From IMG/VR virus record IMGVR_UViG_3300007764_000002, positions 1 to 39,400 of that record: 39,400 bases of DNA. The stretch is one strand, 5' to 3'. Positions 384 to 39,265 of the stretch are shown piece by piece. Every line of letters begins with the position of its first letter. Position 1 is the first letter of the stretch. A program made the translations under genes and the position numbers. Below the pieces are notes generated by a model. That model saw only the letters and a list, made by a program, of their open reading frames with translations, ran no database searches and was not told the origin of the DNA. Source of the DNA: a virus (taxonomy: Duplodnaviria; Caudoviricetes).

Positions 384-409
384 ATGTTTAAACATGGGAG
401 AACAGGACA

Positions 410-613
410 ATGATTATTAAAGAAATCAATCAAGCTAGATTAGCCGCAAAAGGCGGCTGGTGGACGTATGTTAGCCGGGATAACCGTATCCGCATTAAGG
501 GGTATGGTACTTGGATACAACGATTGGAGCATGATAACTCAGTTTACAGTGGGCCGATGGATTGTACTGTAAAAGAGTTTAAGGATTTTTTGTTGGGTTG
601 GTTTGGCGAATAA
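410..613 (+). CDS. Early hypothetical protein
   Basis: First ORF after P1, GGGAG RBS, 67 aa. Confidence 0.75.
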   Translation: MIIKEINQARLAAKGGWWTYVSRDNRIRIKGYGTWIQRLEHDNSVYSGPMDCTVKEFKDFLLGWFGE

Positions 614-637
614 ACCTTTTTATAGGAGAACAAGACA

Positions 638-835
638 ATGGAAATTGACCAAACTGTAAAAGCGGAATTGTATGACGGAGAGCTTTATGAAACGTGTTGG
701 GTATATGTTCAATCCGAGCCAAACCTGTGGACTGTTGGGCATTATGGTCCGGGCGGCAAGTGGAATAGTGAATCAGACCATAGCTCGAAAGAAGACGCTG
801 CAACCCGCTGTCATTGGCTGAACGGTGGCGACTAA
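638..835 (+). CDS. Early hypothetical protein
   Basis: AGGAG RBS; ends ...WTVGHYGPGGKWNSESDH...AATRCHWLNGG, a pattern I recognise from small phage proteins. Confidence 0.75.
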   Translation: MEIDQTVKAELYDGELYETCWVYVQSEPNLWTVGHYGPGGKWNSESDHSSKEDAATRCHWLNGGD

Positions 836-856
836 CCTCAACTACCGGAGAATAAA

Positions 857-1051
857 ATGAGCACGAAACAGACTGATATCTACAATGTTTTAATTGAGGA
901 TAACAGCTTATTTAAATTTCTCACGGACCATATGCAATATCGTCCTGACAATAGGACCTATGTAATTGACGCCCGAACATTAAGGCTTGCTCCCCCAGCA
1001 GCACGCCGAGCGTTCGAGAGAATAAGAGAAGCCCAAACTACAGGAGAATAA
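857..1051 (+). CDS. Early hypothetical protein
   Basis: GGAGAATAAAATG initiation region, tight packing. Confidence 0.7.
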   Translation: MSTKQTDIYNVLIEDNSLFKFLTDHMQYRPDNRTYVIDARTLRLAPPAARRAFERIREAQTTGE

Positions 1052-1052
1052 A

Positions 1053-1367: not shown

Positions 1368-1380
1368 TTTACCCGATCCC

Positions 1381-1436: not shown

Positions 1437-1464
1437 TTGACTTTTCAATTTTATAGTGTATACT
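1437..1464 (+). promoter_or_regulatory. sigma70-type early promoter P2
   Basis: TTGACT(1437-1442)-16 bp-TATACT(1459-1464), then GTTTAAAC and AAGGAG. Confidence 0.8.
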
Positions 1465-1487
1465 ATGTTTAAACAAAGGAGAATAAA

Positions 1488-1950: not shown

Positions 1951-2550
1951 GTGGCACTACAAGTTAAAACGAAGTTTAAAGAACAGTGGTTGAACACCGC
2001 CCTAACAAAATTCATTCGCAAGCATTTTACAGACGCCGGGTACACAGTCCCCGATAATGTGCGACTGAGCACGGGCTGGCCCAGCCGGGGAGCGTTAGCG
2101 AAAAAGCGAGTTTTAGGGCAAGCATGGTCAGCCGAAAACTCAGCGGATGAGACGCATGAAATTATTATCAGCGTATATCTTGACGACCCTTGTGAGGTTC
2201 TGGCTACCCTTATTCACGAAGTTGTGCACGTGGTTGTCGGGCATGAGGTGGGCCACCGCAAGCCTTTTGTTGACTGTATGAAACTGGTAGGCTTGGAAGG
2301 TAAGGCGACTGCTACCGTAGCCAGTGATGACTTAAAAGAGAAAATCGCAAAGTGGCTTCCGGTACTGGGGTGGTATCCTCATGCTAAGCTTGACGGATCG
2401 GAACAGAAAAAGCAGTCTACTCGCATGATTAAAATGGAGTGTAAAGAATGCGGATGTGTTGTGAGAACGTCCCGAAAATGGCTTGAAACCTTCGGGGATG
2501 AATGGCCTTGTCCCTGCGAAGGGGTATTACAGGAGGTACAACCAGAATGA
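1951..2550 (+). CDS. SprT-like zinc metallopeptidase with C-terminal zinc ribbon
   Basis: HExxH (TLIHEVVH) plus downstream H (GHRKPF); CKECG...CPC at the C-terminus; AAGGAG before GTG. Confidence 0.75.
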   Translation: MALQVKTKFKEQWLNTALTKFIRKHFTDAGYTVPDNVRLSTGWPSRGALAKKRVLGQAWSAENSADETHEIIISVYLDDPCEVLATLIHEVVHVVVGHEVGHRKPFVDCMKLVGLEGKATATVASDDLKEKIAKWLPVLGWYPHAKLDGSEQKKQSTRMIKMECKECGCVVRTSRKWLETFGDEWPCPCEGVLQEVQPE

Positions 2551-3487: not shown

Positions 3488-3490
3488 TAT

Positions 3491-3520
3491 GGTACTGGTC
3501 GGATGAAACTGTCCAGTACC
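3491..3520 (+). promoter_or_regulatory. 5' leader hairpin just downstream of P3
   Basis: GGTACTGG/CCAGTACC perfect 8-bp inverted repeat followed by TTT. Confidence 0.5.
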
Positions 3521-3551: not shown

Positions 3552-4148
3552 ATGGCTGATACACCACACTATAAAGTACGAGCGACATCTCATCCTGATA
3601 CTGAAAACGCATGGCTGCTTAGCTATGGCAAGGGAAAGAAAAAGCTAACCGCCAAAGTTACGCCGACAAGTTTAGGGTGGATAGTGAGTGAAACCGAAGC
3701 TGCTTTAAGTCTTGATGCCTTTCCCCGACTGAGAGACGCAAAAATAAAATGGGGAGCTTGGGCCGCGAGTCATTATGATGGCAACAGTTCACCGTCACCG
3801 AAAAAAGAAGGGACGACACGATCTGGACCGCCCAAGCCCCCATCTTTAATGAAGAAGAAATCTGGACCTCCGGCGTTTAAACGCTCTGGTCCTCCAACTC
3901 ACAAGGCGAAGACACCAGAAAATCTTGATCGGCAGTTCGAGTCTGACCCTTTCAGTCCTATGATGCGATACGCCTGCAACTGTGAGGACAAGGCGAAACG
4001 TCAGCAATTGACGCCCCTTGGGGTACTGGTAGAATTGCAGAAGTTCTGGCTCACGCATCAGGAAAAGGGCGACATGACTATCGACAAATTTCACCCGATC
4101 TTTAACACTGTTCAAGCTTGCTTGGCACGGGAGCTTAAAGAAGATTGA
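3552..4148 (+). CDS. Hypothetical protein with Pro/Lys-rich linker (3x SGPP)
   Basis: First ORF after P3, GGAG RBS, 198 aa. Confidence 0.75.
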   Translation: MADTPHYKVRATSHPDTENAWLLSYGKGKKKLTAKVTPTSLGWIVSETEAALSLDAFPRLRDAKIKWGAWAASHYDGNSSPSPKKEGTTRSGPPKPPSLMKKKSGPPAFKRSGPPTHKAKTPENLDRQFESDPFSPMMRYACNCEDKAKRQQLTPLGVLVELQKFWLTHQEKGDMTIDKFHPIFNTVQACLARELKED

Positions 4149-4549: not shown

Positions 4550-6680
4550 GCCAGCACCAGCCGCTCCGAGAGTGCGAGGGTCTCACACTAGGCCGCCAAT
4601 CGTTAATCCTGCTAGACGCTCTCTCTGGCGTGTACTGGAGGAATGTGACTACCCGCAGAAGGTTGTTGTCTTAGATTTTGAGACGTACTTTGATTCTAAG
4701 TTCAGCATGAAAACGCTCAGTACCATTGAGTACATCATGGACCCCCGCTTTGAAGTCCTAGGATTGGCCAGTCTGCGGATGATGCCGGGGACCATCGGGC
4801 CGGGTTACGAAAGTAGAACATCGTGGCAGGATGGTGAAGATGGCGTCCAAGAGATGCTCTCCCGTATGAAAGTTCAGTATGGTGAACACTTCCAGAATTG
4901 TACAATCGTAGCCCACAATGCTAAGTTTGACGTATCAGTCCTAGCATTTAAATATCACATCTACCCCGCCTACGTCATCGATACACTGGGACTGGCCCGA
5001 CACTGGAACGCACGCCGGAACAACGATCTGGCGTCACTCGCTAAACACTTTGGACTACCGGATAAAGGGGATACGAAACTCTTTACAGGGTTTACGAACA
5101 GAGTCCGGGCTGCTAACAAGGGCAAACGAAAAGGCCCCCCGGTGAAGATGCCACGGATGACTGAGCAAGACAAGCGTGATCTAGGAGTCTATGCTCAGAA
5201 TGATGTCGCTCGTGAATGGGAACTGCTTAAAATCTTGCTGCCCAAATTAAGTAACCCAAAGACAGAACTGCGGATCATGCACCATACCTTGGAGTTGTTC
5301 TACAAGCCGACCTTAAAGGTTGATTACAACAGGGCTGAGGATATCAAGGCCAGAATGAATGCGGAGATCGACCGGGAGATAGACAAAGCCAACGAGATCG
5401 GATCGTTTAAACATCCCGTTATATCTCGATCCGCACTCAGCGGAGAGACCAGCTTTGAACGCCTGCTATTAGACGCCCTGAACGGGGCGGGGGATGACTA
5501 CCAAAAGTACACAAAAAGAACTAAGAAAAAGAATAAGGCTTGGATGTTTGCCCTTGCGAAGGATGACCCTGCGAGAGACCAACTATTAACTCATCCTGAT
5601 CCGTGGGTGCGTAGCTTAATGGAAGCAAGGGTTGCATTGAAATCATGGCCATTGCATATTAAACGAGTTGATCGGATTGTAAATCAAAGCAAAGCAACCG
5701 GCGGATGGCTACCTGTTCCATTGAAATATTGTGGGGCACATACAGGCAGATGGTCAGGCGGAGAGAAGATCAACCTACAAAACCTTGGCAGTCGCGGGCA
5801 TGAGCTTGTGAATGCCATCCGGGGAATGCTGATCGCAGATGATGGAGACGAACTAATCATCGCTGATTCCGCACAGATTGAGGCAAGAGTTTTGCCGTGG
5901 CTGGCCAATCAGAACGATCTCGTTGAAAAGTTCGCTAATAATGAAAAGATTTATTGTGAATTTGCATCGAAGATTCTAGGGTTTAAAGTTAGAAAGCCCC
6001 GGAAAGATGGACCGATTAAAGCTATCGAGGATAAAATGAAGTGGGCACGTAACAGCGTGGGCAAAGTTGGCGTGCTGGCTTGTGGCTATGGCATGGGACC
6101 AGAGCGAGCAGTGGACTATGCCAATGGTACGATTGATCTTGAGACTGCCACTAAAGTTGTCAAGACTTATCGGGCTGATAATAAGAGGGTCGTGAAATTC
6201 TGGAGCGACATTGAAAGAGCTTTTATATACACGGCTCGCTACGGTAAGCCTTGCTCACTAGATCATGGCCTTACACTATATCAATTGCCCGACTGTGATG
6301 TTGTAATTCGGTTGCCAAACGGCAGGGAGTTAAAGTACCACCAAGTGAAAGTACGGTCTAGCGAGAATGGGAAAGCTACGGTGGAAGTGTACAACGCCTT
6401 GGAAAAATGCTGGAAGTATACATGGGGCGGCTCTCTTACAGAGAATATAGTACAGGCGATCAGCCGTGACATACTTTGGGGGGCCATTGAGTTGTTGGAA
6501 GACGACGGGGTGCATGTTGCCCACCATGTGCATGATGAGCTAATCGCGGTTGTCCCGCACGGGGATGGTGAGTTAGCCCTGCACAAGGCCATCACTGCTT
6601 TAAGCATCACTCCTAAGTGGGCAAGGGGACTACCCCTATCCGCCGAAGGAGTTGTCACGAGAAGGTACGGAGATCATTAA
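4539..6680 (+). CDS. polA: DNA polymerase family A with 3'-5' exonuclease
   Basis: ExoI LDFETY, ExoII AHNAKFD, ExoIII YAQND; HTGRWSG; motif A DSAQIEARVL; motif B R..GK...LACGYG; motif C HVHDE. Confidence 0.95.
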   Translation: MKSKPAPAAPRVRGSHTRPPIVNPARRSLWRVLEECDYPQKVVVLDFETYFDSKFSMKTLSTIEYIMDPRFEVLGLASLRMMPGTIGPGYESRTSWQDGEDGVQEMLSRMKVQYGEHFQNCTIVAHNAKFDVSVLAFKYHIYPAYVIDTLGLARHWNARRNNDLASLAKHFGLPDKGDTKLFTGFTNRVRAANKGKRKGPPVKMPRMTEQDKRDLGVYAQNDVAREWELLKILLPKLSNPKTELRIMHHTLELFYKPTLKVDYNRAEDIKARMNAEIDREIDKANEIGSFKHPVISRSALSGETSFERLLLDALNGAGDDYQKYTKRTKKKNKAWMFALAKDDPARDQLLTHPDPWVRSLMEARVALKSWPLHIKRVDRIVNQSKATGGWLPVPLKYCGAHTGRWSGGEKINLQNLGSRGHELVNAIRGMLIADDGDELIIADSAQIEARVLPWLANQNDLVEKFANNEKIYCEFASKILGFKVRKPRKDGPIKAIEDKMKWARNSVGKVGVLACGYGMGPERAVDYANGTIDLETATKVVKTYRADNKRVVKFWSDIERAFIYTARYGKPCSLDHGLTLYQLPDCDVVIRLPNGRELKYHQVKVRSSENGKATVEVYNALEKCWKYTWGGSLTENIVQAISRDILWGAIELLEDDGVHVAHHVHDELIAVVPHGDGELALHKAITALSITPKWARGLPLSAEGVVTRRYGDH

Positions 6681-7060: not shown

Positions 7061-7667
7061 ACATTACTGTGGAATTGACCCCGGCTTTAAGGGGGCGATA
7101 TCAGTAATGAACGCTGCAGGCACCGTGGTAAGCATTGTAGACTTACCTGTTACGAGTAAAGGGACTGGCAAGTCAAGAGAGTTTGATCTGCCTGCATTAA
7201 GGAACGTGTTTAAACGCATAAAGTTTACTCACGATCTGGTAGTCGGTCTCGAATGGCCTACTACTCGTCCCGGTGAGGGGGCGGAACGAAGTGAGCGGTT
7301 CGGTCGTGGCAAGGGGATTTTGCAGGCTATGCTGTTTTGTATGGGGTTTGACTATTATTTAATCTCCCCGAATTTATGGAAGGGACGACTAGGTGTACCC
7401 GGAAAGACACAGGGAGATTCAAATATCATAGCGGAGCAAGTATTTACTACCTATTACCCCCAATTTGCGGACTTAATCAAAGGCCCACGCGGTGGTTTCA
7501 AGGACGGCAGGTGTGATGCAGCCCTGATCGCTCACTTTTTGCGGACCCGGAGTGTGGCGGGGTTGAAGTCGATTGTGGAAAAGCATGGAAGGGACAGTGC
7601 GGAAGCAATGGCTTTTGTGTTAGGAGGGGGGCGAAGTAAGACAAAAAAGTTTTTCCGAAGACCTTGA
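7035..7667 (+). CDS. RuvC-like Holliday junction resolvase
   Basis: GIDPG, central LE, FG.G.G, P..WK, DGRCDAALIA catalytic pattern; start moved to ATG 7035. Confidence 0.85.
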   Translation: MDLPIGPHEHYCGIDPGFKGAISVMNAAGTVVSIVDLPVTSKGTGKSREFDLPALRNVFKRIKFTHDLVVGLEWPTTRPGEGAERSERFGRGKGILQAMLFCMGFDYYLISPNLWKGRLGVPGKTQGDSNIIAEQVFTTYYPQFADLIKGPRGGFKDGRCDAALIAHFLRTRSVAGLKSIVEKHGRDSAEAMAFVLGGGRSKTKKFFRRP

Positions 7668-7715: not shown

Positions 7716-8936
7716 ATGACCATTCGACAATTTGCACTATCAGCGTCTAGCATTTCATCATTCAAAGCTTGCCCTACCCGGTATAGACTGGCGTATCGTG
7801 AGGGTATTCGTCCAATTGAGGACACTGACTCGCAACGTCGGGGCACTAACTGGCACGCTCTCCATGAAGTCTACGAGAACGAGCTTGGCAAAGCCAGAAA
7901 CGACGAAGCATTGGACTATGAGCAAGCGAGTGCGAAGGCTCTCCAAGCGGCTATCGACTTCCTGAATGATCGATATGCTGATGCTCCGATGCCGTCTTAT
8001 AAAACGATTGAAGAGTGGCAAGTTGAACAGATGACGCTGGTTGCCTCCTTCATGGCATACCTCAATTATTGGGGAAGTACAGAAGATCGGGTCTATCCCC
8101 TGAAGAGTGAGGTACAATTTCAATTGCCCCTGTACACTCCGAAGGTTGGGCTACCGTTACCCATGTCTCAGGTAGTACGACAGGGAAAAATCGACAACAT
8201 CGGGATATGGCAGAATAAGCTCGTCAATGTGGAGCGTAAATCTACCACCAGAAGTATTGATTCGTCTAGCGACTACTGGAATAAGGCACAAAAAGATACG
8301 CAGGTCAGCATGTATGACCTATCCTTCCATGATATTATGAAATCGGAAGGGCCGCAGTTCTTCGGGTTGTCAAGTGATTGCGAGCTAGAATGCTCCGGCA
8401 GCACGCTATACGATGTATGGCACGTTCCTACGATCAAACCGTCTAAGCTTACGCAGGCAGGTACGGCAGAGCTTTTGAAAACTCAGACCTATTGTGGTCA
8501 AACTTTCGATGTTAAGGTGGTGGTACACTCTGGCTTTGAGGTGCATACCGAGGTATTTGTAGACGGCAAAGGGGCAGAAGTAATCCCCGGCAAACGTGGG
8601 TTCGCAGTCCGTGAAACACCTGATATGTACGCGGCTCGTCTACTTCAAGATATCCAAGAGCGTCCTGAGTTCTACTTCCAGCGACGAGAAATCAGCCGTA
8701 CCGACAATGACCGTAAGCGATTTCGTAACGAACTTTTCAACATCTATCAAGCACAGAAAATGTTTGACATGAACAATTGCTGGTATGAGAATGAGCAGCA
8801 ATGCCGGGCAACATTCCCCTGCCCCTACATCCCGATCTGCTACGGAGAAGGTGCGGATGCACTCTGTAAAAGCAAGGATGTACCTAACGGGTTCAAGCGT
8901 CGGCATGAAGATACTCCGGTGGAAGAAGATGTATAA
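7716..8936 (+). CDS. PD-(D/E)XK exonuclease (RecB/Cas4-like)
   Basis: LSASSI..FKACP, GT.WH, GKID, VERKST, Q.SMY and C-terminal C....PCPY..IC (possible Fe-S ligands). Confidence 0.85.
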   Translation: MTIRQFALSASSISSFKACPTRYRLAYREGIRPIEDTDSQRRGTNWHALHEVYENELGKARNDEALDYEQASAKALQAAIDFLNDRYADAPMPSYKTIEEWQVEQMTLVASFMAYLNYWGSTEDRVYPLKSEVQFQLPLYTPKVGLPLPMSQVVRQGKIDNIGIWQNKLVNVERKSTTRSIDSSSDYWNKAQKDTQVSMYDLSFHDIMKSEGPQFFGLSSDCELECSGSTLYDVWHVPTIKPSKLTQAGTAELLKTQTYCGQTFDVKVVVHSGFEVHTEVFVDGKGAEVIPGKRGFAVRETPDMYAARLLQDIQERPEFYFQRREISRTDNDRKRFRNELFNIYQAQKMFDMNNCWYENEQQCRATFPCPYIPICYGEGADALCKSKDVPNGFKRRHEDTPVEEDV

Positions 8937-8949
8937 GGAGCGTTTAAAC

Positions 8950-9138
8950 GTGGCAGGTAAGGGTGACAAAATTCGACCGTTTGACAGAGAAAAGTATGCA
9001 ACGAATTATGACCGGATATTCGGCAAGTGCCCGGACCATCCAGCATATAAAGCGAAAAGAAAACCTACGGTTGACTGTATAGTGTGCCGGAGACTTTGGA
9101 GAGAAGCTCAATTTAAGGAGACCCAGCATGGCAACTAA
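8950..9138 (+). CDS. Small hypothetical protein (MAGKGDKIRP...NYDRIF) with C/H zinc-finger-like tail
   Basis: AAGGAG at 8935-8940, GTG start at 8950; CPDH...CIVC. Confidence 0.65.
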   Translation: MAGKGDKIRPFDREKYATNYDRIFGKCPDHPAYKAKRKPTVDCIVCRRLWREAQFKETQHGN

Positions 9139-10392: not shown

Positions 10393-10427
10393 AATTAGAT
10401 AGACCCTGTTTAAACAAGGAGAATAAA

Positions 10428-11363: not shown

Positions 11364-13706
11364 ATGAGTGAGACAAAGTTTGATAATTTGATGAGGAAGT
11401 TTCAAGGGAATGTCTACCCGGCAATGCTTGATTCGCTCGGTGCCCATTTGGGAGTTGACGCGAAGACGCTTGGCTCGCTTGACTTAGGCTGGGCACCTAT
11501 TGTCAGTTTTAAAAAGGGTCCGAACTTTCAAGGTTGGTGGGTGATTCCTGAACGTGACGCCGACGGAAAGATCAGGGGGCTAAGTTTGCGATCTCAGTTT
11601 GATCGTAAGGTAATGTACCCGGGATCAAATCACGGTCTTATATATCCCCTTAATCCCAACCATGAACGGGGAACAGTTGAGTATAAAAACGGTGCACATA
11701 ACTGGGTTCGGCCAATGGATGCAGGGATTGAGTGCCCGGTGTGTGGAAAACCTGATGGTTGTTTAATCTCAGCAGACGATGTGGAGGACCCGAAGGCTGC
11801 CATATGTATCCGGGTCAAGGATAATGCCGTCAAGCCCATGAAATTCGGGTACCTCCACATTTTAAAACAGGAAGGGAGACTCGTTCCGGGCGTATCAGCA
11901 TTGCCGGCAAGTGAGCATCCTATAATAATTGTTGAGGGAATGACGGATGTAGCTACGGCCCTCGGTCTAGGATTTATGGCAGTAGGAAGACCGTCGAACC
12001 TTGCTGGCATGGATATGCTGAAAGACCTTGTTCGGGGCAGGAAGGTCATAATTATTGGCGAGAACGATGACGTTAACCCTACAACAGGGCAACGGCCCGG
12101 CCATGAAGGAATGTTGGCATCCTTCCAAGTTCTGAAACAAACCTGCCCTGATAGCTGTATGGTGCTACCGCCGGATCATATCAAGGATTTTCGACAGTGG
12201 GTAACTCGGTATAATCTTACCGCTGAGCAGTTTTTAGAATATGTTGATGAACATAAGCAGACCGGAGGGGAAAACGAGTGTATCCTTCCCAATCGAAAAG
12301 CCTTGACACTTGCCAGAGCGTGGTTGATGAACGAACATAGAATGGCTGGTCGATTTACTCTTCGATGGTATGCGGATCAGTGGTACAAGTATCGAGGAAC
12401 AAAGTACGAGCAAGTCGGACTGAAGGATACGATTCGGGGGCCGCTGTATGAATGGTGCGATGACAAGATGGTAATGACTGAAACAAAATCAGGCGAGACC
12501 AAAGTTGAACCGCTGATGTGCAACCGTCATCTGGTGAATGATATCGCGGATGCTATGCTGGATGACTGTCCCATTAAGGCGGATACAATACCAGTCTGGA
12601 TTAACGGGTGCACGGGTCCCGATCCATCTGATCTTATACCCTTCGCAAACGGCGTACTATGGGTGCCAAAGTATCTAGCTGGTGCCCCGGAAGATGAGTA
12701 TATGCTGAACTCAACGCCGGACCTGTTCAATACGTTTGCCCTACCGTTTGCGTTTGATCCGACGGCGAAGTGCCCCCGATGGAGACGATTCCTTGCTACG
12801 ACTTTCGACGATAATAGAGAGAAAAAGGACCTCCTTCGGGAGTGGTTTGGGTATTGCTTGACTTCTGATACCAGCCTGCACAAGCTGATGATGTTCCACG
12901 GCCCTCGTCGATCTGGCAAGTCCACCGCAATCGCTGTACTTGAGGGCATTGTAGGACGAGAACATTGTGCAGCGATTACATTCAGTCGGCTACTGGAAAG
13001 CTTTGGATTAGCAGGGTTAGTCGGTAAACATGTCGCCTTGATGTCTGATGCTAGACTTCCGGCAGGTTCCAGTTCTATGAAAGCGATGGAGATTCTCCTT
13101 AATATCGTCGGCGAAGACCCCGTGGATATCAACAGAAAGAATCGAGATGCCCTCGCGAACCACAGGCTAAACTGTCGATTTACCATTGCAACAAATGAAC
13201 TACCCCAGCTACCCGATCATTCGGGAGCAATGGAAGCACGTTTAAACGTCATACAATTTCCGAACTCTTTTTACGGAAAGGAAGATTTTAACCTACGTGA
13301 AAAGCTGATCGAGGAAGCTCCCGGTATAACGGTGTGGGCCTTGGAAGGACTACGTCGATTGCGAGTAAGCAGACGCTTTACCGTGCCTGAATCGAGCGAA
13401 GAGTCTCTGCGAGATTGGAAGCAATTGACATCTCCCGAAGCATCCTTCATTGAAGAGTGCTGCGATCAGGGAAGTAAGGATTTTGAAGTACAGCGAGCAG
13501 AGTTGTATGAAGCATGGCGAGGCTGGGCCACAGAGCGAGGGATGAGACCGGTATCTGTCAGCGTGTTTTACGAGCGAGTTAAACAGCACGTTTCATTCCT
13601 AAGTTCGGAATGTCACACCCAGTCCGGTCGAAAGAGACATATATTCAAGGGATTAAAGCTGCGTAATTGGGCTGTCAAACAATATCTTGGAAAACCCGAA
13701 GACTAA
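11364..13706 (+). CDS. Primase-helicase (TOPRIM primase + D5/P4-type SF3 helicase)
   Basis: CPVCGKPDGC Zn finger; TOPRIM IIVEGMTD and IIGEND; D5_N region; Walker A GPRRSGKST; TNELP; C-terminal wHTH. Confidence 0.9.
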   Translation: MSETKFDNLMRKFQGNVYPAMLDSLGAHLGVDAKTLGSLDLGWAPIVSFKKGPNFQGWWVIPERDADGKIRGLSLRSQFDRKVMYPGSNHGLIYPLNPNHERGTVEYKNGAHNWVRPMDAGIECPVCGKPDGCLISADDVEDPKAAICIRVKDNAVKPMKFGYLHILKQEGRLVPGVSALPASEHPIIIVEGMTDVATALGLGFMAVGRPSNLAGMDMLKDLVRGRKVIIIGENDDVNPTTGQRPGHEGMLASFQVLKQTCPDSCMVLPPDHIKDFRQWVTRYNLTAEQFLEYVDEHKQTGGENECILPNRKALTLARAWLMNEHRMAGRFTLRWYADQWYKYRGTKYEQVGLKDTIRGPLYEWCDDKMVMTETKSGETKVEPLMCNRHLVNDIADAMLDDCPIKADTIPVWINGCTGPDPSDLIPFANGVLWVPKYLAGAPEDEYMLNSTPDLFNTFALPFAFDPTAKCPRWRRFLATTFDDNREKKDLLREWFGYCLTSDTSLHKLMMFHGPRRSGKSTAIAVLEGIVGREHCAAITFSRLLESFGLAGLVGKHVALMSDARLPAGSSSMKAMEILLNIVGEDPVDINRKNRDALANHRLNCRFTIATNELPQLPDHSGAMEARLNVIQFPNSFYGKEDFNLREKLIEEAPGITVWALEGLRRLRVSRRFTVPESSEESLRDWKQLTSPEASFIEECCDQGSKDFEVQRAELYEAWRGWATERGMRPVSVSVFYERVKQHVSFLSSECHTQSGRKRHIFKGLKLRNWAVKQYLGKPED

Positions 13707-13716
13707 GGAGACGACT

Positions 13717-17044: not shown

Positions 17045-17375
17045 TTTATTAACCCTTGTGCGGTTATACGCTCCAAGTCGAGCGTGTGAACGTGCAATCG
17101 ATGAAGATCGCGTTGAGTTTTTAGGGGGGTTTCTGCCGAAAGGCAATGACCCCCATTGGATAGTACGTATTAAATCAGTGCACGGTCGTACGTGGATTAT
17201 CAAGGTTTCAGTAGATCAAGAGACTATGACGTACGGCGTACATCAGATCGAGGAAAGTGATATCAAGTGGTCTGATTGGGACGGTGATAAGCACACTAGA
17301 AGCCCCCTTTATTGCGGGTCTCTTCCACACGTGTATCAAGAGAAAAAGAATAGGAGTTTAAACAGTGATGACTAA
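17013..17375 (+). CDS. Hypothetical protein
   Basis: 120-aa ORF continuing the operon. Confidence 0.6.
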   Translation: MRHKPINSPRDLLTLVRLYAPSRACERAIDEDRVEFLGGFLPKGNDPHWIVRIKSVHGRTWIIKVSVDQETMTYGVHQIEESDIKWSDWDGDKHTRSPLYCGSLPHVYQEKKNRSLNSDD

Positions 17376-17717: not shown

Positions 17718-18045
17718 GTGCGATAGTCAATGGTTGGATGTGCAAAGATATTCTCTTGCCGCACTTCATCACATTGTTGAGAACAAGCTGTCACTTTACT
17801 GGGATTATAAGGGGATGGTTCGCCTTATCCCTGCTGCAATCTTGGCGAATGTCGTACAACGAGTAGAGGAAGAGCGAGCGTTTAAACAACGCAAGGGGTA
17901 TCCTTCATCCTCAAATGCTAATTTCTCAAGGATTAGCATATTCCAAACGGTCACGTCAAAATACTCAGGGCCAGCCGCACGAGTCCAACACCTGACGCCC
18001 CTGCCGCCAGTCCCACGCCAGCCGCAATCCACACAACCCGATTAA
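17689..18045 (+). CDS. Hypothetical protein, last of the + arm
   Basis: GGGGAG RBS; 3' end overlaps the convergent gene by 95 nt, so the extent is uncertain. Confidence 0.45.
   Translation: MSSSTPIVIECDSQWLDVQRYSLAALHHIVENKLSLYWDYKGMVRLIPAAILANVVQRVEEERAFKQRKGYPSSSNANFSRISIFQTVTSKYSGPAARVQHLTPLPPVPRQPQSTQPD
17915..17939. terminator. Hairpin at the convergence of the two arms
   Basis: ATGCTAAT/ATTAGCAT inverted repeat about 11 nt beyond the stop of the last - strand gene. Confidence 0.35.
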
Positions 18046-25053: not shown

Positions 25054-25818
25054 TTATTCCCCTATCCATATCATATTGATCGAACCCTGTTCTAGGTCAT
25101 AGTCCTGTGATGGAGTTTGAAGGTCCTGAATTTGTAACCATATTGCTTGAGAAGCTGTGAGAGATAAAATCGCAGTCCCTGAAACATGTGTCGGAGACCC
25201 CGATCCTATAAAATGAGCATGAGTTTTTCCAGCCGGAGCAGCCCCATCGACAGTCACTCCGACATGATACTCACTTAGATTACCACCAGAACCAGATACC
25301 TCCCAGTTTACTAAGTATTTACCTGCCGTAGCTGCTACTAGCTGGTATCCATACGTGGCATCTTGTGTCGCACCCTTTAAGTTACCAGCGGTATCAATGC
25401 CGGTAATCGAGTACCAAGTGTTTGTACTACTAATAGTGACTGTCGCAGACGTATGAGTCCACAGTTCCCCATAGTCGGGAGCAAGCACAAGATTGCTGCT
25501 GCTTGTAGTCAGCCCAGTCCCGACGTTTAAACCGATTCCACTAGAGTCTCGTTTTACAGGGGCAGCAACCTTGGCTCGGATTCCATTGTTACTATCAAAT
25601 TCCAGTCCCGGATCAGTAGCAAGATTTATCGCAATCCCAGCGGATAGCTGTTCTAGTCCCTTGCTTGGATCAATCAATAACTGAACATACCCATCACCGT
25701 CAAGATATATAACACCAGCGGGATCAATAAATTCAACACGAGAGGCCAGATTTTGAGCATTCCTTCGTGCTCGCACAGGCATTCCCGGAGTCCGATCTTG
25801 TCCGCGTAATCCACCCAT
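25054..25818 (-). CDS. Short tail fibre/needle: beta-spiral-like shaft with C1q/BclA-like head
   Basis: GL-x5-GI repeats (KGLEQLSAGIAINL, PGLEFDSNNGIRAKV, GTGLTTSSSNLVL); AGKYLVNWEVS...SGTAILSLTASQAIWLQI. Confidence 0.6.
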   Translation of the reverse strand: MGGLRGQDRTPGMPVRARRNAQNLASRVEFIDPAGVIYLDGDGYVQLLIDPSKGLEQLSAGIAINLATDPGLEFDSNNGIRAKVAAPVKRDSSGIGLNVGTGLTTSSSNLVLAPDYGELWTHTSATVTISSTNTWYSITGIDTAGNLKGATQDATYGYQLVAATAGKYLVNWEVSGSGGNLSEYHVGVTVDGAAPAGKTHAHFIGSGSPTHVSGTAILSLTASQAIWLQIQDLQTPSQDYDLEQGSINMIWIGE

Positions 25819-28409
25819 TATACCCCTCGGCCTCTCAGTCTATCCACAATGGATACCTTGGCACCGCCCTGCTCATAGGCCCATGTAGACCCTGAGTTTT
25901 GGTGAAGTCTCAAAGTGAAGGCGTTACCTGCAATTCGTTGTAATACCGGATTATTCCTAACCCCCGTAAGAACTTTACGGATACGTGGGTTCGTACCGGC
26001 ACTGGCCCTATCAATTGCAATCTCAGGTGTATCACCACTGAATACATCACACGTAACTGATCCTGAGTTCTTTGCAAGGTTTAGCTGTAAGTCTGATAAG
26101 TATGAAAAGGCATAGACATCGCCCGGTTGTATCGGCGTGAATACAACGTGGCTTGAAATATCTGTCCCGTCGTCGGTAGTCGCATCAGAATCAAACGCTC
26201 GAATGTAGCTGTCAAAGCCACCCAAAAGTATTGCATTGTTCTCCGGGTTATCGGCATTAAACTGGAGCACAGCAGTAGGACCATGAGCAATCGGATACTC
26301 GTCTGGCCAGAAGGCGTCATTTCGCTCATCCCAAAACCAGTGTTTCGGAGCAGTCGTTGGCTGTGATAGAGGGGTAATAAAAACATGTACCCCCTGCCAC
26401 TGCGGATCGTATATCAGGCGAACATAACTTGTCGAGATATCCACATCCGAGAAAGTTTTATCGAGCCGACCTTTTGAGATAAGTTCAGGGGCTGGATTTG
26501 CCGTATCCATCTTGTACAGCCCGTTTATGCCGAAAAAGTAAAACGTGCCAGACGTATTCCACGTCCATGCTTGACCGCCAACGATGCCGATATTCCGAGT
26601 TATATTATCTATATTACCACCCGCCGCTGGATCACCACGCATAATCCAGATCGAGTTTGATCCCCCCATCAGCATCACATCATCCTGATAAGGAGCTAAA
26701 GCGGTAAGAACGTCACCGAGCTTACCGGCGTCGCTATTGTTTCCTGCAACGGCCTGCGTTGCTGTAGTTGTTGCCGGGCTGTAGTCCCAGTCGAACGGAT
26801 CGCCAGATTTAGACATGAACCAGTTTTGCGGGTCTTCCCGTAGTCCAGCCATTACAACCCGACCTCGGTAGACTGTAAGGATAGAGCACCCGAGTGTAGT
26901 ATCGTCACTCCCTTGCGGAAGAGTTCCCGCCGAAACGTCTGTAGCCCAATCGTTCCAGCTATTGTCCGCGTACTTTAAATACCCATAATTCGCAGAGGTT
27001 CCGTCACAGAAAAACATATTCTGGAACGCTTCAGCCCCAAATATAACTGGGGGCGTACCTAGTACTCCCGATCCCGAACCAACAATAGAAAGGCTTGACA
27101 AGTCAGTATCTGATCGGTACACACTCCCACCCGAAACTACGATAAGTCTTGATTCCCTCGCGGTAGGATTCAACCCAGCATCTGTCCAATCCCACACCGT
27201 GGCAGTATATACTCCACCAGTTACTGTAGAAAAAGCTACCATGCCTCCATCAGAGTTAAAGGCTCCTACTTGACACTGATCGGTGATCGGAGAGGCCGGA
27301 TCAGAAAATGCTACAGGAGTACCGGTTGAGACGTCGTAAACGAGTGTGGTAGTAGCTCCCCCTCCACTCTCTCGTGCTGCAACTACATACTCTGCTGATG
27401 GATGAGAAGTTAACTGATTCGCATTCCCACCCAGTGATATCGACCCTCCCGCCGAAAACCCGGTCGATGCGTTATACGAAACAACATATAAAGTAGACGA
27501 GGAAACAGAAGTGTATGCAACGTGGGCGGAGTTATAGGTAGTCGTTAATACTTGAGCCTGTACCGTCGATGCAACCGAGTCCAGAACAGACCCAAAACCA
27601 GTTGTCTTACTAAAAGTTCGTGCGTATATATGCGACGTATCGGCATGAAAAATAGCGGTGTCATCGTCAGTCCATGCTAAGCCGTTCGTATATGGTACAC
27701 CGGTTAACGTATCGATGAGAGTTCCAATTCCCGTTGAGGAAGAAAAGTTATAAGCCCTTATCCCTCCCTGTGTAGCAACCAGAACCACATCACCTGCATG
27801 ATTAAACGCTACACGATACCCCTGTTCATTACCACTAGGGTCAAAATCAGTAGAAGCTCCGAATGTGCCATCCGTATTATAAACATACTGGCGGACCGGA
27901 GCATTATATTGACTGCCCAATGTGGTAACAATCCATCCACCGTCTGGACTTATTTCGGCTGCCGTGAATATCTGAGTTTCTGTATCAACGACAGATAACG
28001 CTCCTGCCGTTAGCTTAATACTGTTCATGGCCAGACTCGATGTTAAAGAGTTGCCCGTTGTAATGAACATATCTGCGGTAGGGTGCCATGATAAGGTGGA
28101 ATAGTTACTTGCGGTGATACTTCCAGTCACCACATCATCAATCTTTGTGCTAAAGCCAGCCGTCTGCACAAGTGAAACTGCTTCCGTCGATTGACCTAAG
28201 AACTGAATCAGATTAGAACTATTAACTGCATCAGCAAAAAACTTGCTTTGGCCTGTTCGCTGGCCGCCCCTGTTTCGGCGATCTAGGGAATCATATGCTC
28301 GGACGTTTAAACAGTCAGGGGTAGATCGGTCCGGCTGAGCCGACATTGCCATATTCTCTATGTATCCACGCAGGGGGAAATTCAGCGGTGTGAGACTTGG
28401 AACTGGCAT
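25818..28409 (-). CDS. Tail nozzle / tubular protein B-like with inserted beta-propeller
   Basis: 863 aa beta-rich; YRGRVV.AG...PQNWFMSK.GDP.DW, GIVG..AW, W..DE pattern; follows the adaptor gene. Confidence 0.7.
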   Translation of the reverse strand: MPVPSLTPLNFPLRGYIENMAMSAQPDRSTPDCLNVRAYDSLDRRNRGGQRTGQSKFFADAVNSSNLIQFLGQSTEAVSLVQTAGFSTKIDDVVTGSITASNYSTLSWHPTADMFITTGNSLTSSLAMNSIKLTAGALSVVDTETQIFTAAEISPDGGWIVTTLGSQYNAPVRQYVYNTDGTFGASTDFDPSGNEQGYRVAFNHAGDVVLVATQGGIRAYNFSSSTGIGTLIDTLTGVPYTNGLAWTDDDTAIFHADTSHIYARTFSKTTGFGSVLDSVASTVQAQVLTTTYNSAHVAYTSVSSSTLYVVSYNASTGFSAGGSISLGGNANQLTSHPSAEYVVAARESGGGATTTLVYDVSTGTPVAFSDPASPITDQCQVGAFNSDGGMVAFSTVTGGVYTATVWDWTDAGLNPTARESRLIVVSGGSVYRSDTDLSSLSIVGSGSGVLGTPPVIFGAEAFQNMFFCDGTSANYGYLKYADNSWNDWATDVSAGTLPQGSDDTTLGCSILTVYRGRVVMAGLREDPQNWFMSKSGDPFDWDYSPATTTATQAVAGNNSDAGKLGDVLTALAPYQDDVMLMGGSNSIWIMRGDPAAGGNIDNITRNIGIVGGQAWTWNTSGTFYFFGINGLYKMDTANPAPELISKGRLDKTFSDVDISTSYVRLIYDPQWQGVHVFITPLSQPTTAPKHWFWDERNDAFWPDEYPIAHGPTAVLQFNADNPENNAILLGGFDSYIRAFDSDATTDDGTDISSHVVFTPIQPGDVYAFSYLSDLQLNLAKNSGSVTCDVFSGDTPEIAIDRASAGTNPRIRKVLTGVRNNPVLQRIAGNAFTLRLHQNSGSTWAYEQGGAKVSIVDRLRGRGV

Positions 28410-28457: not shown

Positions 28458-29246
28458 TTATCGGAGATCGTTACCGTCGGAATCAGTCTCGTCATAGCTG
28501 ACAAGGCAAGAACGGTACACAAACTCAATATCGTGAATCAATACTTCCTCACCGTCCGTGTCATTGTGACCGTCTGTAATCAGAGTGAAGTAGACGATGT
28601 CGTCGCGATTCAACGAATTACTCGACAAGTCAACAGTAATCCACTGTTCCGTTGTACTCAGGACCGTGGTAGGCTTGGTGGGATCAAGGTCAGAACCCAA
28701 GGCTGAACCAGCAGTCTTGACATACACCTTGGAATCAAGTTGTACATCGTCGTCTGTGGACTGCGTAAGTTGACTCGCCAGTACGCGGACTTTAAGAACG
28801 TCAGTAGCCTCATCGTAGTCGCGGGGAACCTGCCAACGGATAGTACCGATGGTATCTTGAGTTTCCTCGACTTTCAAGACTTTGGCATTCGTCTCATCAG
28901 CAGTACCCTGCAAAGAAGACCGAAGAGCAGCCACATCAGTAACGACCTTATTAATAGCTGCGGCACATTCTCGCACGCCATCAATAAGGGACGCACCATT
29001 GTCGCCAGCAGGATCGACAAGGGTAGTAATGTCGCCGTCCTGCGTACCACCAATTGCCCCGGAACCCTCAGTCAAAGCAGCGGCTGTAGCCGTAAGATTG
29101 GCGGCCTGCATGATCTGGTTAAGGTTCACACCGCTTGCTCGTGTAAGATATCCGGAATCATTGTACGGGGAACCATCAGAGTGAAGACCGCCGCCCGTAA
29201 CGATCTGCTTCACTGCGTACAAGAAATTGTTTAAACTAAGTTTCAT
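28458..29246 (-). CDS. Virion structural protein of unknown function
   Basis: Acidic 262 aa in the structural operon, AAGGA RBS. Confidence 0.7.
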   Translation of the reverse strand: MKLSLNNFLYAVKQIVTGGGLHSDGSPYNDSGYLTRASGVNLNQIMQAANLTATAAALTEGSGAIGGTQDGDITTLVDPAGDNGASLIDGVRECAAAINKVVTDVAALRSSLQGTADETNAKVLKVEETQDTIGTIRWQVPRDYDEATDVLKVRVLASQLTQSTDDDVQLDSKVYVKTAGSALGSDLDPTKPTTVLSTTEQWITVDLSSNSLNRDDIVYFTLITDGHNDTDGEEVLIHDIEFVYRSCLVSYDETDSDGNDLR

Positions 29247-33571: not shown

Positions 33572-33635
33572 AATTTCCCTTTCGTCCTGTTGTTTAAACG
33601 TCACAAGCCTCGCAGTTAAACTATGTCCAAGCTTA

Positions 33636-33663
33636 ATTATACCACATAGAATCAAAAAGTCAA
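33636..33663 (-). promoter_or_regulatory. sigma70-type promoter P5 for the scaffold/capsid operon
   Basis: On the - strand TTGACT-TTTTGATTCTATGTGG-TATAAT (16-bp spacer), same family as P1-P4. Confidence 0.8.
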
Positions 33664-34397: not shown

Positions 34398-34398
34398 C

Positions 34399-36249: not shown

Positions 36250-36260
36250 TATTATCCCTT

Positions 36261-38177
36261 TCATGCGTGTGTAAAATCGAAACGATCTTGTGACTGTCGT
36301 TGCTTCTGCTTCTTCTTCCATTGCTGCATTCGATACCCAACACTTCTCACAGGAGCTTTGACTTTTTCTTGCACGGGTCTTATACTTTCATTGTGAGGAA
36401 CAAGGCATAGCATATCAGCGATCACCCTATCGCCATGAGCCTTCCGTGTATTGGCTGATTCTTCTACCAGATCAGCGGGTCCGATCCCTCCGCCCGCGTA
36501 ACTTATGTATGTCAAGGCTTCATCCAGTGCAGCCTCATCGTGATTGATGAACCCGCCATGTGCATAAGCCCGGCGTAGTAACCCGAGAGCCGCAGCCTTC
36601 TTCTCCGGGGATGATCTCCAACCGTACCGCTTACCTTTTTTCTCTGCGATGGTTCCGGGCATTCGATCAAAGTAGATGTTCGGGTATTTGTAAACTTTAG
36701 TTACTTGTCTGCCGAAATCAAAACCCGGGTCGCCATTGTTTTCCCAAATGAGCAACGGACGAGAACGCCCGCCGACCCATAAGCACGCGGCACAGGCGAT
36801 TCTAGCCAGTTCATAGGGTGGCGTATTCGCATCGGCAAACGCGGCAACTTTCTCTCGCGTCTCATCGCACATAATATTTATTGTACTGTTAGACGCCCCC
36901 ATGCCCTTAGAAATATCTATGGCCACGGTATAGTGGTAGTGCTGATCCAGTCTGCCCCGAACAAGCTTCGTCCAGAACTTCCACGGACCGCGAGGGGAGC
37001 GTGCAACTTTTTTGAGGTCCCGCTTTGTAATGATATCAGGGATATCTGCGTCGGGCACCTTCTTTAAGAAATTTATGGCCATCGTAAACTTGGGAGGTCG
37101 TGCGAATAGCGTACGATGCTCTTCAATGATCGTCCCTTCAAAAAAAGTATCGCCCGATCCAACATGGTCCATGTCGATCTCTATCGCTACCTCTTTTGGA
37201 GATCGAGTATCCCACTCGTTGTCATACCACGGGGAACGAATCTTGAATCGGCCTAAATCATCCTCTTTAACATAGCGACCACGCCCTTTTTCCGGGTGCT
37301 CCCACCACGGAAGAATAAACACGGGAATCTGTCCCGAGAGCCTCCACTTAGAGTACGCAGTTCCCGGGCCGTTTGGTGTTGAGCACGGAAGTCTACAGGC
37401 GGTGACGTCACGGGTTGATCTCTTGATCGACTCACCCTCCGCCATTTTAGCCATCTCATCAAGGAATATTGAAGTACGCCGGTCAGAACTACCAGCAGAT
37501 GCGTTCGCTGATTCACCGTCGACCCTCGTTCTATTCTGAAGATTAACTAGGTGAAGCTTTTTTCGATTCATTGGAGGAAGCATCCACTCAGGGAGTCTGT
37601 TCAACATGAAGTCGATTTTACCGAATAAGGTGCCGGGGTCAGCGAGTGAACCAAACGGGTAATTTTTTGGCAGACCATCCAGCATGTCTACCGCGTCTTC
37701 TTTTCTTGAGATGATAAGGTGAGACTCAGACTCTTTAAATATGAAACGGTGGACAAAGACCGCCATGTGATTCCACGTCGCACCCATGTCACGGCTTTTA
37801 TCAGTCAATAAATCCTCACCCTTGTCGATAGCCCTTTCTATTCTAAGGACATGTCTCTCTCCGATTTCCCATGTAACAAATGGGACATCTGCAAACGTAG
37901 CTTGCTTGACTTTACCACTCTCTGCGTCGGGTTGAAAGACTCGTAGAGTGTAAAGAAACGCATTCATAAAAAACAACAAGGATTGTGACGCGGCAGTAAA
38001 GAGATCGACTTGGAGTTCCGTATCCTCTTCAGCATCCTTTAGTATAGCCGCCCGCCACTGTAGGTTCTCTACCGGCGTCTTCGGAACAATCAGCCCCGTT
38101 ACAGGGTCTTTCCAGAACTTACGTACTCGTGGAAAGTTGCTGGAAAGGGAAGGTTTTTTAGCAAACTCATTGGGCAC
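36261..38177 (-). CDS. terL: Terminase large subunit
   Basis: Walker A variant KSRDMGATW, Walker B IFLDE, STPNG coupling motif, nuclease IDISKG.G, WENN, HGDRVIA. Confidence 0.92.
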   Translation of the reverse strand: MPNEFAKKPSLSSNFPRVRKFWKDPVTGLIVPKTPVENLQWRAAILKDAEEDTELQVDLFTAASQSLLFFMNAFLYTLRVFQPDAESGKVKQATFADVPFVTWEIGERHVLRIERAIDKGEDLLTDKSRDMGATWNHMAVFVHRFIFKESESHLIISRKEDAVDMLDGLPKNYPFGSLADPGTLFGKIDFMLNRLPEWMLPPMNRKKLHLVNLQNRTRVDGESANASAGSSDRRTSIFLDEMAKMAEGESIKRSTRDVTACRLPCSTPNGPGTAYSKWRLSGQIPVFILPWWEHPEKGRGRYVKEDDLGRFKIRSPWYDNEWDTRSPKEVAIEIDMDHVGSGDTFFEGTIIEEHRTLFARPPKFTMAINFLKKVPDADIPDIITKRDLKKVARSPRGPWKFWTKLVRGRLDQHYHYTVAIDISKGMGASNSTINIMCDETREKVAAFADANTPPYELARIACAACLWVGGRSRPLLIWENNGDPGFDFGRQVTKVYKYPNIYFDRMPGTIAEKKGKRYGWRSSPEKKAAALGLLRRAYAHGGFINHDEAALDEALTYISYAGGGIGPADLVEESANTRKAHGDRVIADMLCLVPHNESIRPVQEKVKAPVRSVGYRMQQWKKKQKQRQSQDRFDFTHA

Positions 38178-38571
38178 TGTTCTTCCTCTTATATGTCGGC
38201 GGACCGCTCGAACTCTTACCTATGACACTGGTAGCTCTGTCGTTTAAACGTCGCTTCGACATCTCGCTCACTCTTTCCGCAGCCGTCATCCCTCCGGCTT
38301 CCTCAGTAATTGACTGCGGAACTCGACCCTCCATGCGGTCATAGACTAGCTGAATTGCCCACGACGCAGGCTCATGGGGAATTTCAGTCTCGTTGCCCTC
38401 GTCGTCCATCTTCTTTTCGACGTACCCGAGGGCTTTATCCCACAGAAGTCTTGCCAGTGCCTCGCCTTTAGTGATGACTGCACCATCCTCTACTGAGATG
38501 GTATGAGCTTCAGCCGCTAGTTCACGGAGAAACTTTGTTACTTCTTTCGTGTTGTAAGATTTCTTTGCCAT
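38167..38571 (-). CDS. terS: Terminase small subunit (putative)
   Basis: Directly upstream of TerL; KAL.G...AIQLVYDRMEGRVPQ (DUF5681-like pattern); TAATG coupling. Confidence 0.65.
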   Translation of the reverse strand: MAKKSYNTKEVTKFLRELAAEAHTISVEDGAVITKGEALARLLWDKALGYVEKKMDDEGNETEIPHEPASWAIQLVYDRMEGRVPQSITEEAGGMTAAERVSEMSKRRLNDRATSVIGKSSSGPPTYKRKNSAQ

Positions 38572-38981
38572 TATTGTCCGTAGTCTGTTGCCTTCCATGA
38601 TTCCTTGACATAGTCATTCGATTTACCAGTACGAATGAATCCGCGAATAACAGCATCCACCGCCCCGTTCGGAGCCTGTGCATACACCAAGTAGCCGAGA
38701 TCGCCAGAATGCGGAGGAATAAGCTCTTGTACAATACCACCATTAGCGGCCACTGTGCCACGCACAATGTACTCTCCAGCCCCTTCTGTACCATCTGCTC
38801 CGATAAAGAGAAACGTGTCACCGCCAGCCGCAGAAATAAGTTCCACTGAGTGAATGACCAGATACTCATTGTCCTTCAGTGTGTACGCAGTCAAAGAGCC
38901 GTCTTCATATAACGGAATGACTACGCCGCCCGACGCATCAGCAGAATGCAATTCCCCTCTAAAAGGTCGTCCTTCGTACAT
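38571..38981 (-). CDS. Small beta-rich protein, probably virion-associated
   Basis: 136 aa, TAATG coupling on both sides. Confidence 0.65.
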   Translation of the reverse strand: MYEGRPFRGELHSADASGGVVIPLYEDGSLTAYTLKDNEYLVIHSVELISAAGGDTFLFIGADGTEGAGEYIVRGTVAANGGIVQELIPPHSGDLGYLVYAQAPNGAVDAVIRGFIRTGKSNDYVKESWKATDYGQ

Positions 38982-39265
38982 TATTTACCCTTTCGTTTAA
39001 ACAATTTTGGAATCCCGAATTTTAGTTTGCTTAACAACGACTTCTTAACCCCGGTCTCCTGCTTCAGTTTTATAACTATAGGACTTGGTTGAATATCCGA
39101 CCATGCCCCGCTATCAAAGTAGATTTTCGTTGCTACAGGTTCTAGCTTTACTTTTAACGTAGCCGATGGCGGAGTAGTTGTAGATGAATATTTTGAATCG
39201 TTAATCGGATGCACACCCGATCCAGCAAACTCTCCTGTCGTCTTATTATACACATAGTAGATCAC
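38981..39265 (-). CDS. Tail-fibre-assembly-like protein (tentative)
   Basis: YVYNKTTGEFAGS...STTTPP...YFDSGAW resembles the N-terminus of Tfa-type chaperones; AAGGAG RBS. Confidence 0.5.
   Translation of the reverse strand: MIYYVYNKTTGEFAGSGVHPINDSKYSSTTTPPSATLKVKLEPVATKIYFDSGAWSDIQPSPIVIKLKQETGVKKSLLSKLKFGIPKLFKRKGK

What the first reader, a model, noticed from the sequence alone, without database searches (positions are those of the whole stretch)
386..39002. Genome-wide iterated palindrome YGTTTAAACR (18 copies, under 1 expected)
Seen: GTTTAAAC at 386, 1467, 3875, 5405, 7208, 8942, 10408, 13240, 17356, 17880, 18713, 19489, 25525, 28305, 29229, 33592, 38242 and 38995. Uniform expectation is 39400/4^8, about 0.6. 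17/18 have a pyrimidine 5' and 15/18 a purine 3', extending the dyad to 10 bp. Inside genes it is read in both stop-free frames (xFK and xLN), which argues for DNA-level selection rather than peptide bias. Phages normally deplete palindromes. Inference: binding sites for a dimeric phage or host protein (stoperator-like repressor sites, nucleoid or partition loading sites, self-marks protecting phage DNA from the A1-like nuclease), or a HIP1-like host signature that could identify the host.
Basis: partly seen in the sequence, partly recalled or inferred. Interest (0 to 1): 0.85.

Follow-up and report, generated by a model that had tools for sequence, protein, structure and literature searches.

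The report
Phage DNA address word, self-encoded reader
This phage keeps 18 copies of the eight-letter DNA word GTTTAAAC where chance gives about one, and unrelated phages keep the same word, or a one-letter variant, when they carry one small protein with an intact zinc-ribbon tail, so the copies are likely docking sites for that phage-made protein, which probably acts as a genome-wide brake on transcription.

Summary
Confirmed: 18 copies against 0.7 expected, 14 in genes against 0.8 under codon shuffling, kept at the same synonymous positions in relatives. It is not a host signature. The word tracks window ORF 1951-2550, an SprT-like HExxH domain plus a ~45-residue zinc ribbon. Word-first, 24 of 80 loci carry the tail against 0 of 80 controls. 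Protein-first, 12 of 12 named phages with the canonical tail carry the word or GTGTAAAC, and 4 with a diverged tail have 0-1 copies. Twelve of 12 near-complete relatives lacking the gene have 0-1. In 11 of the 12 named phages a copy lies just upstream of the gene; in the window two sit at the start of early sigma-70 promoters. The protein is predicted to dimerise (0.62, best control 0.00). Copies are often spaced more evenly than random (10 newly tested genomes, combined P 3e-5; window alone not significant). Best reading: a self-encoded dimeric repressor with a genome-wide site array, working like stoperators but not one of them; a tethered-protease role is the main rival. Binding is untested. 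The scan noted this word on other DNA before (8 notes, 6 naming this protein); I found it in no paper.

The parts
386..393 (.). Word copy starting 3 bases after the -10 hexamer of promoter 356-383 and just before the RBS of ORF 410; likely operator
1467..1474 (.).
356..383 (+). Sigma-70-type promoter match TTGACT-16-TATACT
1437..1464 (+).
1951..2550 (+). Likely reader: 199-aa protein, SprT-like zinc metalloprotease domain (HEVVH at residues 89-93, H102) plus C-terminal zinc ribbon; PHROG 6361; predicted homodimer
2398..2547 (+). Zinc-ribbon tail (residues 150-199; invariant R158, C164, R172, C187), the part that co-occurs with the word; predicted DNA-reading domain
3875..3882 (.). Word copy in ORF 3552-4148 (AFKR)
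5405..5412 (.). Word copy in the DNA polymerase gene (SFKH)
7208..7215 (.). Word copy in the Holliday junction resolvase gene (VFKR)
8942..8949 (.). Word copy at the start of the small ORF 8929-9138
10408..10415 (.). Intergenic word copy just before the RBS of ORF 10428
13240..13247 (.). Word copy in the primase-helicase gene (RLNV)
17356..17363 (.). Word copy at the end of ORF 17013-17375
17880..17887 (.). Word copy in ORF 17686-18045 (AFKQ)
18713..18720 (.). Word copy in the 1635-aa gene (GLNR)
19489..19496 (.). Word copy in the 1635-aa gene (AFKQ)
25525..25532 (.). Word copy in ORF 25054-25818 (GLNV)
28305..28312 (.). Word copy in ORF 25818-28409 (DCLNVR); same position kept in L002, L011, L012, L014 and switched to GTCTAAAC in G001
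29229..29236 (.). Word copy in codons 4-6 of ORF 28458-29246
33592..33599 (.). Intergenic word copy between promoter 33663-33636 (minus strand) and the RBS of the gene upstream of the capsid gene
33636..33663 (-). Sigma-70-type promoter match TTGACT-16-TATAAT upstream of the capsid operon
38242..38249 (.). Word copy in ORF 38167-38571 (RLND); same offset in L007
38995..39002 (.). Word copy 13 bases before the start of ORF 38571-38981

Best explanation
The 18 GTTTAAAC copies are kept by selection on the DNA and are likely binding sites for the phage's own protein at 1951-2550, predicted to be a dimer whose two zinc-ribbon tails would each read one half of the palindrome, probably repressing early promoters (its own among them) and braking transcription along the genome. 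Shown: enrichment, synonymous conservation, co-occurrence of word and tail in both directions, and sites at promoter starts. Predicted: fold and dimer. Inferred: binding (about 0.85), repression at the promoter sites (about 0.7), and a transcription-braking purpose for the in-gene sites (about 0.45). The SprT-like domain would supply the dimer surface; its protease activity may add a second job but is lost in some carriers.
For: Selection; the DCLNVR site uses TGT TTA AAC in the window and L002, L011, L012, L014 (L012 and L014 near-identical) although TTA is 2-10% of their Leu codons, while L009 and L076 encode the same peptide without the word. Word-first: tail in 24 of 80 paired-word loci, 0 of 80 reversed-word loci, Fisher p 1.6e-8; 12 of 25 whole records. 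Protein-first: 12 of 12 named phages with the canonical tail hold 2-41 copies (control word 0-2 where counted); 4 with a diverged tail hold 0, 0, 0, 1. In 69 distinct unnamed loci: 204 GTTTAAAC (8.6 expected), 148 GTGTAAAC (13), control 12 (21); 39 of 69 individually enriched, control 0 of 69. Gene-less relatives: 12 of 12 at least 90% complete hold 0-1 copies. Own promoter: site within about 130 bp upstream of the gene in 11 of 12 named phages, within 170 bp in 23 of 69 unnamed loci. Array switch: G001 has GTCTAAAC at three positions where kin have GTTTAAAC. Dimer: score 0.62, best of 3 controls 0.00, mark reached by 20 of 30 solved homodimers and 1 of 23 single chains, runs share at least 92% of contacts, pLDDT at least 84. 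Tail alone may suffice: a 60-aa tail-only ORF in L135, 2.25 sites per kb. Genetics from print: cluster AZ phage Liebe (33-aa N-terminal truncation, three other changes) makes clear plaques, Maureen turbid (10.1101/2025.05.26.655371 section 14); AZ lysogens are immune yet have no identified repressor (PMC8758107 passages).
Against: No binding or expression data. The tail has no solved DNA-binding relative, so its DNA role rests on co-occurrence. Promoters 3460 and 7664 have no site. No tyrosine or serine integrase in the window (84% complete), complete G001, R26L or Crosby, and Bas97 has a separate CI-like repressor, so it is not a universal immunity repressor; a word nearly fixed across phyla is odd for an immunity system. 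Exceptions: G005 has the gene but 0 GTTTAAAC and 3 GTGTAAAC in 32 kb; G023 (46% complete) has 8 sites and no gene in the fragment; the G311 homolog has no clear array; 30 of 69 loci are not individually significant; 13 of 25 word-first records lack the gene (mostly sparse ones or fragments). Word-first loci were not dereplicated (about 20 are one phage group). HExxH is intact in 97 of 150 top homologs, which a pure repressor does not explain. Even spacing is not what promoter operators predict.
Confidence: 0.55

Rival explanations
1. Same reader, other purpose: the array tethers an active protease every few kb on the phage's own DNA, where it would cut host proteins that load on or travel along it (silencers, translocating restriction or SMC-type defence enzymes, cross-linked proteins). 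Promoter sites only set the protein's level.
For: Even spacing: 4 of 10 newly tested genomes P<0.05, combined P 3e-5, 8 of 10 below the median of other 8-mers of like count; 6 of 11 seen earlier, e.g. R26L CV 0.37, Percival 0.32. HExxH kept in 97 of 150. Best structural neighbour is human SPRTN, weakly (E 0.014). Present in phages with and without integrase. Word nearly invariant across hosts. No fixed orientation of the asymmetric variant.
Against: HExxH is lost in word-rich L140, L151, L363, L367, L368 and the whole domain is absent in L135/L107. No substrate is known. Spacing in the window itself is not significant (CV 0.70, P 0.10), nor in G466, G467, G040, G046.
Confidence: 0.28
2. The words are read by another protein (host factor or a phage repressor that the SprT-like protease cleaves, as in IrrE/DdrO or ImmA/ImmR, recalled), and the gene only travels with the regulon.
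For: The gene's own promoter carries the word, as any regulon member's would. HExxH proteases are known anti-repressors (recalled).
Against: The word follows the tail, not the protease. All-against-all clustering of word-first loci found this family in 21 loci at 33% median identity; the next clusters largely repeat one set of related loci. Hosts span several phyla.
Confidence: 0.1
3. HIP1-like host signature or a by-product of methylation or repair.
For: Octamer palindrome, inside and between genes, regular spacing, as described for HIP1 (PMC5861425 abstract). The window's host is unknown.
Against: E. coli K-12 87 against control 98 while Bas97 has 6 in 41 kb; close relatives differ by gene content; no methyltransferase among 47 ORFs in PHROGs or Pfam.
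Confidence: 0.04
4. Chance, codon bias or assembly/PmeI artefact.
For: GTTTAAAC is the PmeI site (recalled).
Against: present in cultured phage genomes.
Confidence: 0.01

Closest known systems
Operator/stoperator arrays of Cluster A mycobacteriophages (L5, TipsytheTRex repressor; PMC9283540, abstract and passages read)
   Same: A phage-encoded protein with more than a dozen sites across its own genome, in promoters and near gene starts.
   Different: There: 13-mer asymmetric sites, oriented with transcription, in short intergenic gaps, monomeric HTH plus Stoperator domain, tied to immunity. Here: 8-mer palindrome or unoriented variant, mostly inside genes, predicted dimer of SprT-like plus zinc ribbon, found in phages without integrase, word almost fixed across phyla.
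HIP1 of cyanobacteria (PMC5861425, abstract read)
   Same: Selected octamer palindrome in and between ORFs with regular spacing.
   Different: HIP1 is a chromosome trait of one phylum with no known reader in that abstract; this word is confined to phage genomes, absent as an excess from E. coli, and tracks one phage gene.
'SprT-like protease' of Cluster AZ/EH/EB actinophages (Lizalica gp46; 10.1101/2025.05.26.655371, passages and section 14 read) and human SPRTN
   Same: Same protein family (40-46% identity to AZ members); the preprint notes HEXXH, a small C-terminal predicted DNA-binding domain and a possible role in lysogeny.
   Different: The preprint's main text names no binding word (TAAAC 0 hits) and predicts SPRTN-like repair; the sequence-specific array, own-promoter site, dimer and spacing are not described there.

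Membership tests
Cluster A stoperator system | Many sites across the phage's own genome, some in promoters | tested here: met
Cluster A stoperator system | Asymmetric 13-mer oriented with transcription | tested here: not met
   8-mer palindrome; asymmetric variant on the sense strand 13:4, 25:16, 7:11, 6:13, 7:6 in five genomes (automatic ORF calls)
Cluster A stoperator system | Non-promoter sites in short intergenic gaps | tested here: not met
   14 of 18 in ORFs, though 7 of 18 are near start codons
Cluster A stoperator system | Monomeric repressor with HTH and Stoperator domain | tested here: not met
   the co-occurring protein is SprT-like plus zinc ribbon and is predicted to dimerise
Cluster A stoperator system | Bound protein halts elongation and confers immunity | not testable with these tools
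   needs experiment; only the Liebe/Maureen hint
HIP1 | Excess in the host chromosome | tested here: not met
   E. coli K-12 87 against control 98; the window's own host is unknown
HIP1 | Selected octamer palindrome in and between ORFs with regular spacing | tested here: met
   (spacing across genomes; not significant in the window alone)
SprT-like zinc metalloprotease (PF10263) | HExxH plus downstream His | tested here: met
   H89 E90 H93 H102 invariant in A1
SprT-like zinc metalloprotease (PF10263) | Profile or fold match | tested here: inconclusive
   window protein E 0.025, below the cut-off; 21 of 28 members match at E<=0.1; SPRTN best fold hit E 0.014
SprT-like zinc metalloprotease (PF10263) | DNA-dependent proteolysis | not testable with these tools
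   needs assay

The most novel reading that the evidence does not exclude
A portable self-addressing system of phages: a new sequence-specific zinc-ribbon domain parks a dimeric protease at evenly spaced words along the phage's own genome, where it clears host proteins from 'self' DNA, the same address being used across bacterial phyla.
Probability: 0.28. Interest if true: 0.92.

Novelty: new variant of a known kind. Interest (0 to 1): 0.78.

Why it matters
It assigns a likely target sequence to a widespread phage protein of unknown function (2,499 clusters at 50% identity carry the tail) and points to an undescribed small sequence-specific DNA-binding domain. It offers a concrete candidate and operator for the missing repressor of Cluster AZ/EH phages, an open question in print. 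It can be tested at once in cultured phages of E. coli K-12 and Arthrobacter. If even spacing reflects a tethered protease, it would be a new kind of genome self-marking.

Tried and rejected
Host identification: capsid search of named phages found nothing; of genomes, one spurious 20-residue match. Host unknown. Run search: no RNA holder listed. Single-protein locus search with ORF 1951 found nothing. Tail fold: no match in solved structures by sequence, Foldseek or VIA-align (best Z 3.8); this shows neither a new fold nor a different one. A one-residue specificity code (QGTR gives GTGTAAAC, QS/QT gives GTTTAAAC) was rejected: QGTR 13 T-words and 33 G-words, QSTR 121 and 43, QTTR 66 and 64. 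No clear replacement word in the four tail-diverged phages. Prophage-versus-chromosome test: 3 of 401 genomes had a homolog; two have a diverged tail and no array (one checked lies among metabolic genes), one was inconclusive. Stoperator-like orientation: not found. The G001 spacing result (CV 0.33) used a word set chosen after the fact and is not counted. One search dropped 15 unparsed and 19 duplicate loci of 103, and 2 of the 69 kept have a mis-parsed tail. Reads from two other studies cover a few sites without listed changes, too few to count. Literature: (listings) and text searches show no description of the word-protein pair; the library lacks most subscription papers, and the AZ preprint's supplements and its 'repeat sequences (data not shown)' near this gene were not seen and could overlap.
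Full report
Setting. The window is the whole held record, a linear phage contig estimated 84% complete. It encodes a family A DNA polymerase, primase-helicase, resolvase, exonuclease, annealing protein, GroES and an A1-like 'DNA transfer' protein on the + strand, and head and virion genes on the - strand. Its host is unknown.

Observation. GTTTAAAC occurs 18 times at the stated places; shuffles give 0.73, at most 4. Fourteen copies lie in ORFs, in both open frames, against 0.77 under synonymous-codon shuffling. One-mismatch neighbours are not enriched to any similar degree. Flanks are Y in 17 and R in 15 of 18. The same genome lacks GCGC entirely (77 expected) and many 6-base palindromes, so this palindrome runs against the trend.

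Anatomy. Five sigma-70-type matches share TTGACT-16-TATA(C/A)T: 356, 1437, 3460, 7664 and 33663 on the minus strand. The word starts 3 bases after the -10 hexamer of the first two, and lies in the leader of the fifth; 3460 and 7664 have none. Seven copies are near start codons (1.2 expected); this may partly reflect that such spacers are free to change (inference).

Relatives. Of 76 loci found with the capsid protein, 7 hold 2-5 copies, six of them at 54-63% G+C where 0.01-0.04 is expected. Sites recur at matching positions: the DCLNVR codons, an AFK in the zinc-ribbon gene, RLND in ORF 38167-38571, and spacers before gene starts. Carriers and non-carriers are interleaved on the capsid tree (33 rows). 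G001, sister to the carrier L007 (support 96/95), has GTCTAAAC at three positions where kin have GTTTAAAC, so the array changes as a unit.

The partner. A scan for paired words returned 123 viral stretches. Among the 80 with flanks, the only one of 31 window proteins with hits was ORF 1951-2550 (18 loci). Earlier notes of this scan, read in the same turn, name the same protein; I then tested it. Word-first: a tail profile built only from protein-search hits finds 24 of 80 loci, and 0 of 80 loci picked by the reversed word (not dereplicated). In whole records, 12 of 25 carry the gene. Protein-first: 164 named phages have a homolog; I examined 16. The 12 with the canonical tail hold 2-41 copies of GTTTAAAC or GTGTAAAC; Bachaco, Eden, Epa5 and FP1, whose protease motif is intact but whose tail has diverged, hold 0, 0, 0 and 1. 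In 69 distinct unnamed loci the two words total 204 and 148 against 8.6 and 13 expected, the control 12 against 21. Negative controls: 12 of 12 near-complete capsid relatives without the gene hold 0-1 copies. Exceptions are G005, G023 (fragment) and G311. E. coli K-12 shows no excess.

The protein. AlphaFold2 gives pLDDT 92: a zincin-like domain with HEVVH and H102, a linker, and a strand-strand-helix-strand zinc ribbon with invariant R158, C164, R172, C187. The best fold hit is human SPRTN, weak; the tail matches nothing clearly. The complex model supports a homodimer (0.62, best control 0.00; 20 of 30 solved homodimers and 1 of 23 single chains reach the mark; contacts agree at least 92%, pLDDT at least 84), through residues 8-15, 38-49, 59-78 and 144-149, ending where the tails begin. 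It supports binding, it does not show it. That fits a palindrome read by two tails (inference). HExxH is lost in five word-first loci and a 60-aa tail-only ORF occurs in L135, yet 97 of the 150 best tail hits keep SprT-like plus HExxH.

Function. A copy lies just upstream of the gene in 11 of 12 named carriers, often between -10 and RBS; in R26L and the window it is one gene upstream. This is the mark of autoregulation (established knowledge, inference here). In print, AZ phages form immune lysogens without an identified repressor (PMC8758107, passages), and Liebe, with a 33-residue truncation of this gene plus three other changes, makes clear plaques where Maureen makes turbid ones (10.1101/2025.05.26.655371, section 14). 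Such a truncation would remove part of the predicted dimer surface (inference). Against a plain immunity role: no integrase in the window, G001, R26L or Crosby, a separate CI-like gene in Bas97, and a word that barely varies across phyla. Spacing adds a further clue. With the word set fixed beforehand, 4 of 10 newly tested genomes are more evenly spaced than random at P<0.05, combined P 3e-5; 6 of 11 earlier ones are too; the window alone is not (CV 0.70, P 0.10). Selection thus seems to act on coverage, which fits transcription roadblocks and a tethered protease alike.

Verdict. Real, selected, and very likely read by the phage's own zinc-ribbon protein (about 0.85). I commit to a dimeric repressor with a genome-wide array (0.55 overall), with the tethered protease as main rival (0.28). 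It works like a stoperator array but fails three defining features, and it is not HIP1. My literature searches found no description; unseen supplements of the AZ preprint could bear on this.

Noticed in passing
window 1-39400: Strong restriction-site avoidance: GCGC 0 against 77 expected; AGATCT, CGATCG, TGATCA, GGATCC, GAATTC, CAGCTG, TTCGAA, TCATGA all 0 against 11-19. Suggests a host with many type II systems.
   Followed up: no
window 18245-23152: The 1635-aa protein of the virion gene block carries a GGDEF domain at residues 712-820 (E 4.5e-19); if ejected it could act on host c-di-GMP signalling.
   Followed up: no
window 13687-14640: Fusion of a dATP/dGTP diphosphohydrolase N-terminal domain and DUF4406, next to the A1-like gene.
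   Followed up: no
window 10030-10392: Phage-encoded GroES co-chaperonin.
   Followed up: no
window 356, 1437, 3460, 7664, 33663: Five promoter matches share a longer block (GACTTGACTTTT.....T) beyond the two hexamers; promoter 3460 is followed by an imperfect inverted repeat near 3490-3520.
   Followed up: partly
L204 (Arthrobacter phage Emotion): Seven exact copies of the 14-base palindrome GTTTCACGTGAAAC, which resembles the bacterial parS consensus (recalled); this phage lacks an integrase according to the AZ preprint, so it may use host partition.
   Followed up: partly
G002 (L209-L211): This relative lacks the SprT-like gene but has ACGTCACA 13 times against 1.45 expected; L049 and L050 have ACCCAGAC or ACCTAGAC 8-9 times. 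Possibly other word systems, or tandem repeats.
   Followed up: no
L393:1384-2058, L394: Chromosomal homologs with a diverged tail in two small bacterial genomes, in L393 between metabolic genes, with no word array: a possibly domesticated copy.
   Followed up: partly
P0042, P0154, P0155: The tail is also fused to non-SprT N-termini, one with a DnaJ domain.
   Followed up: no
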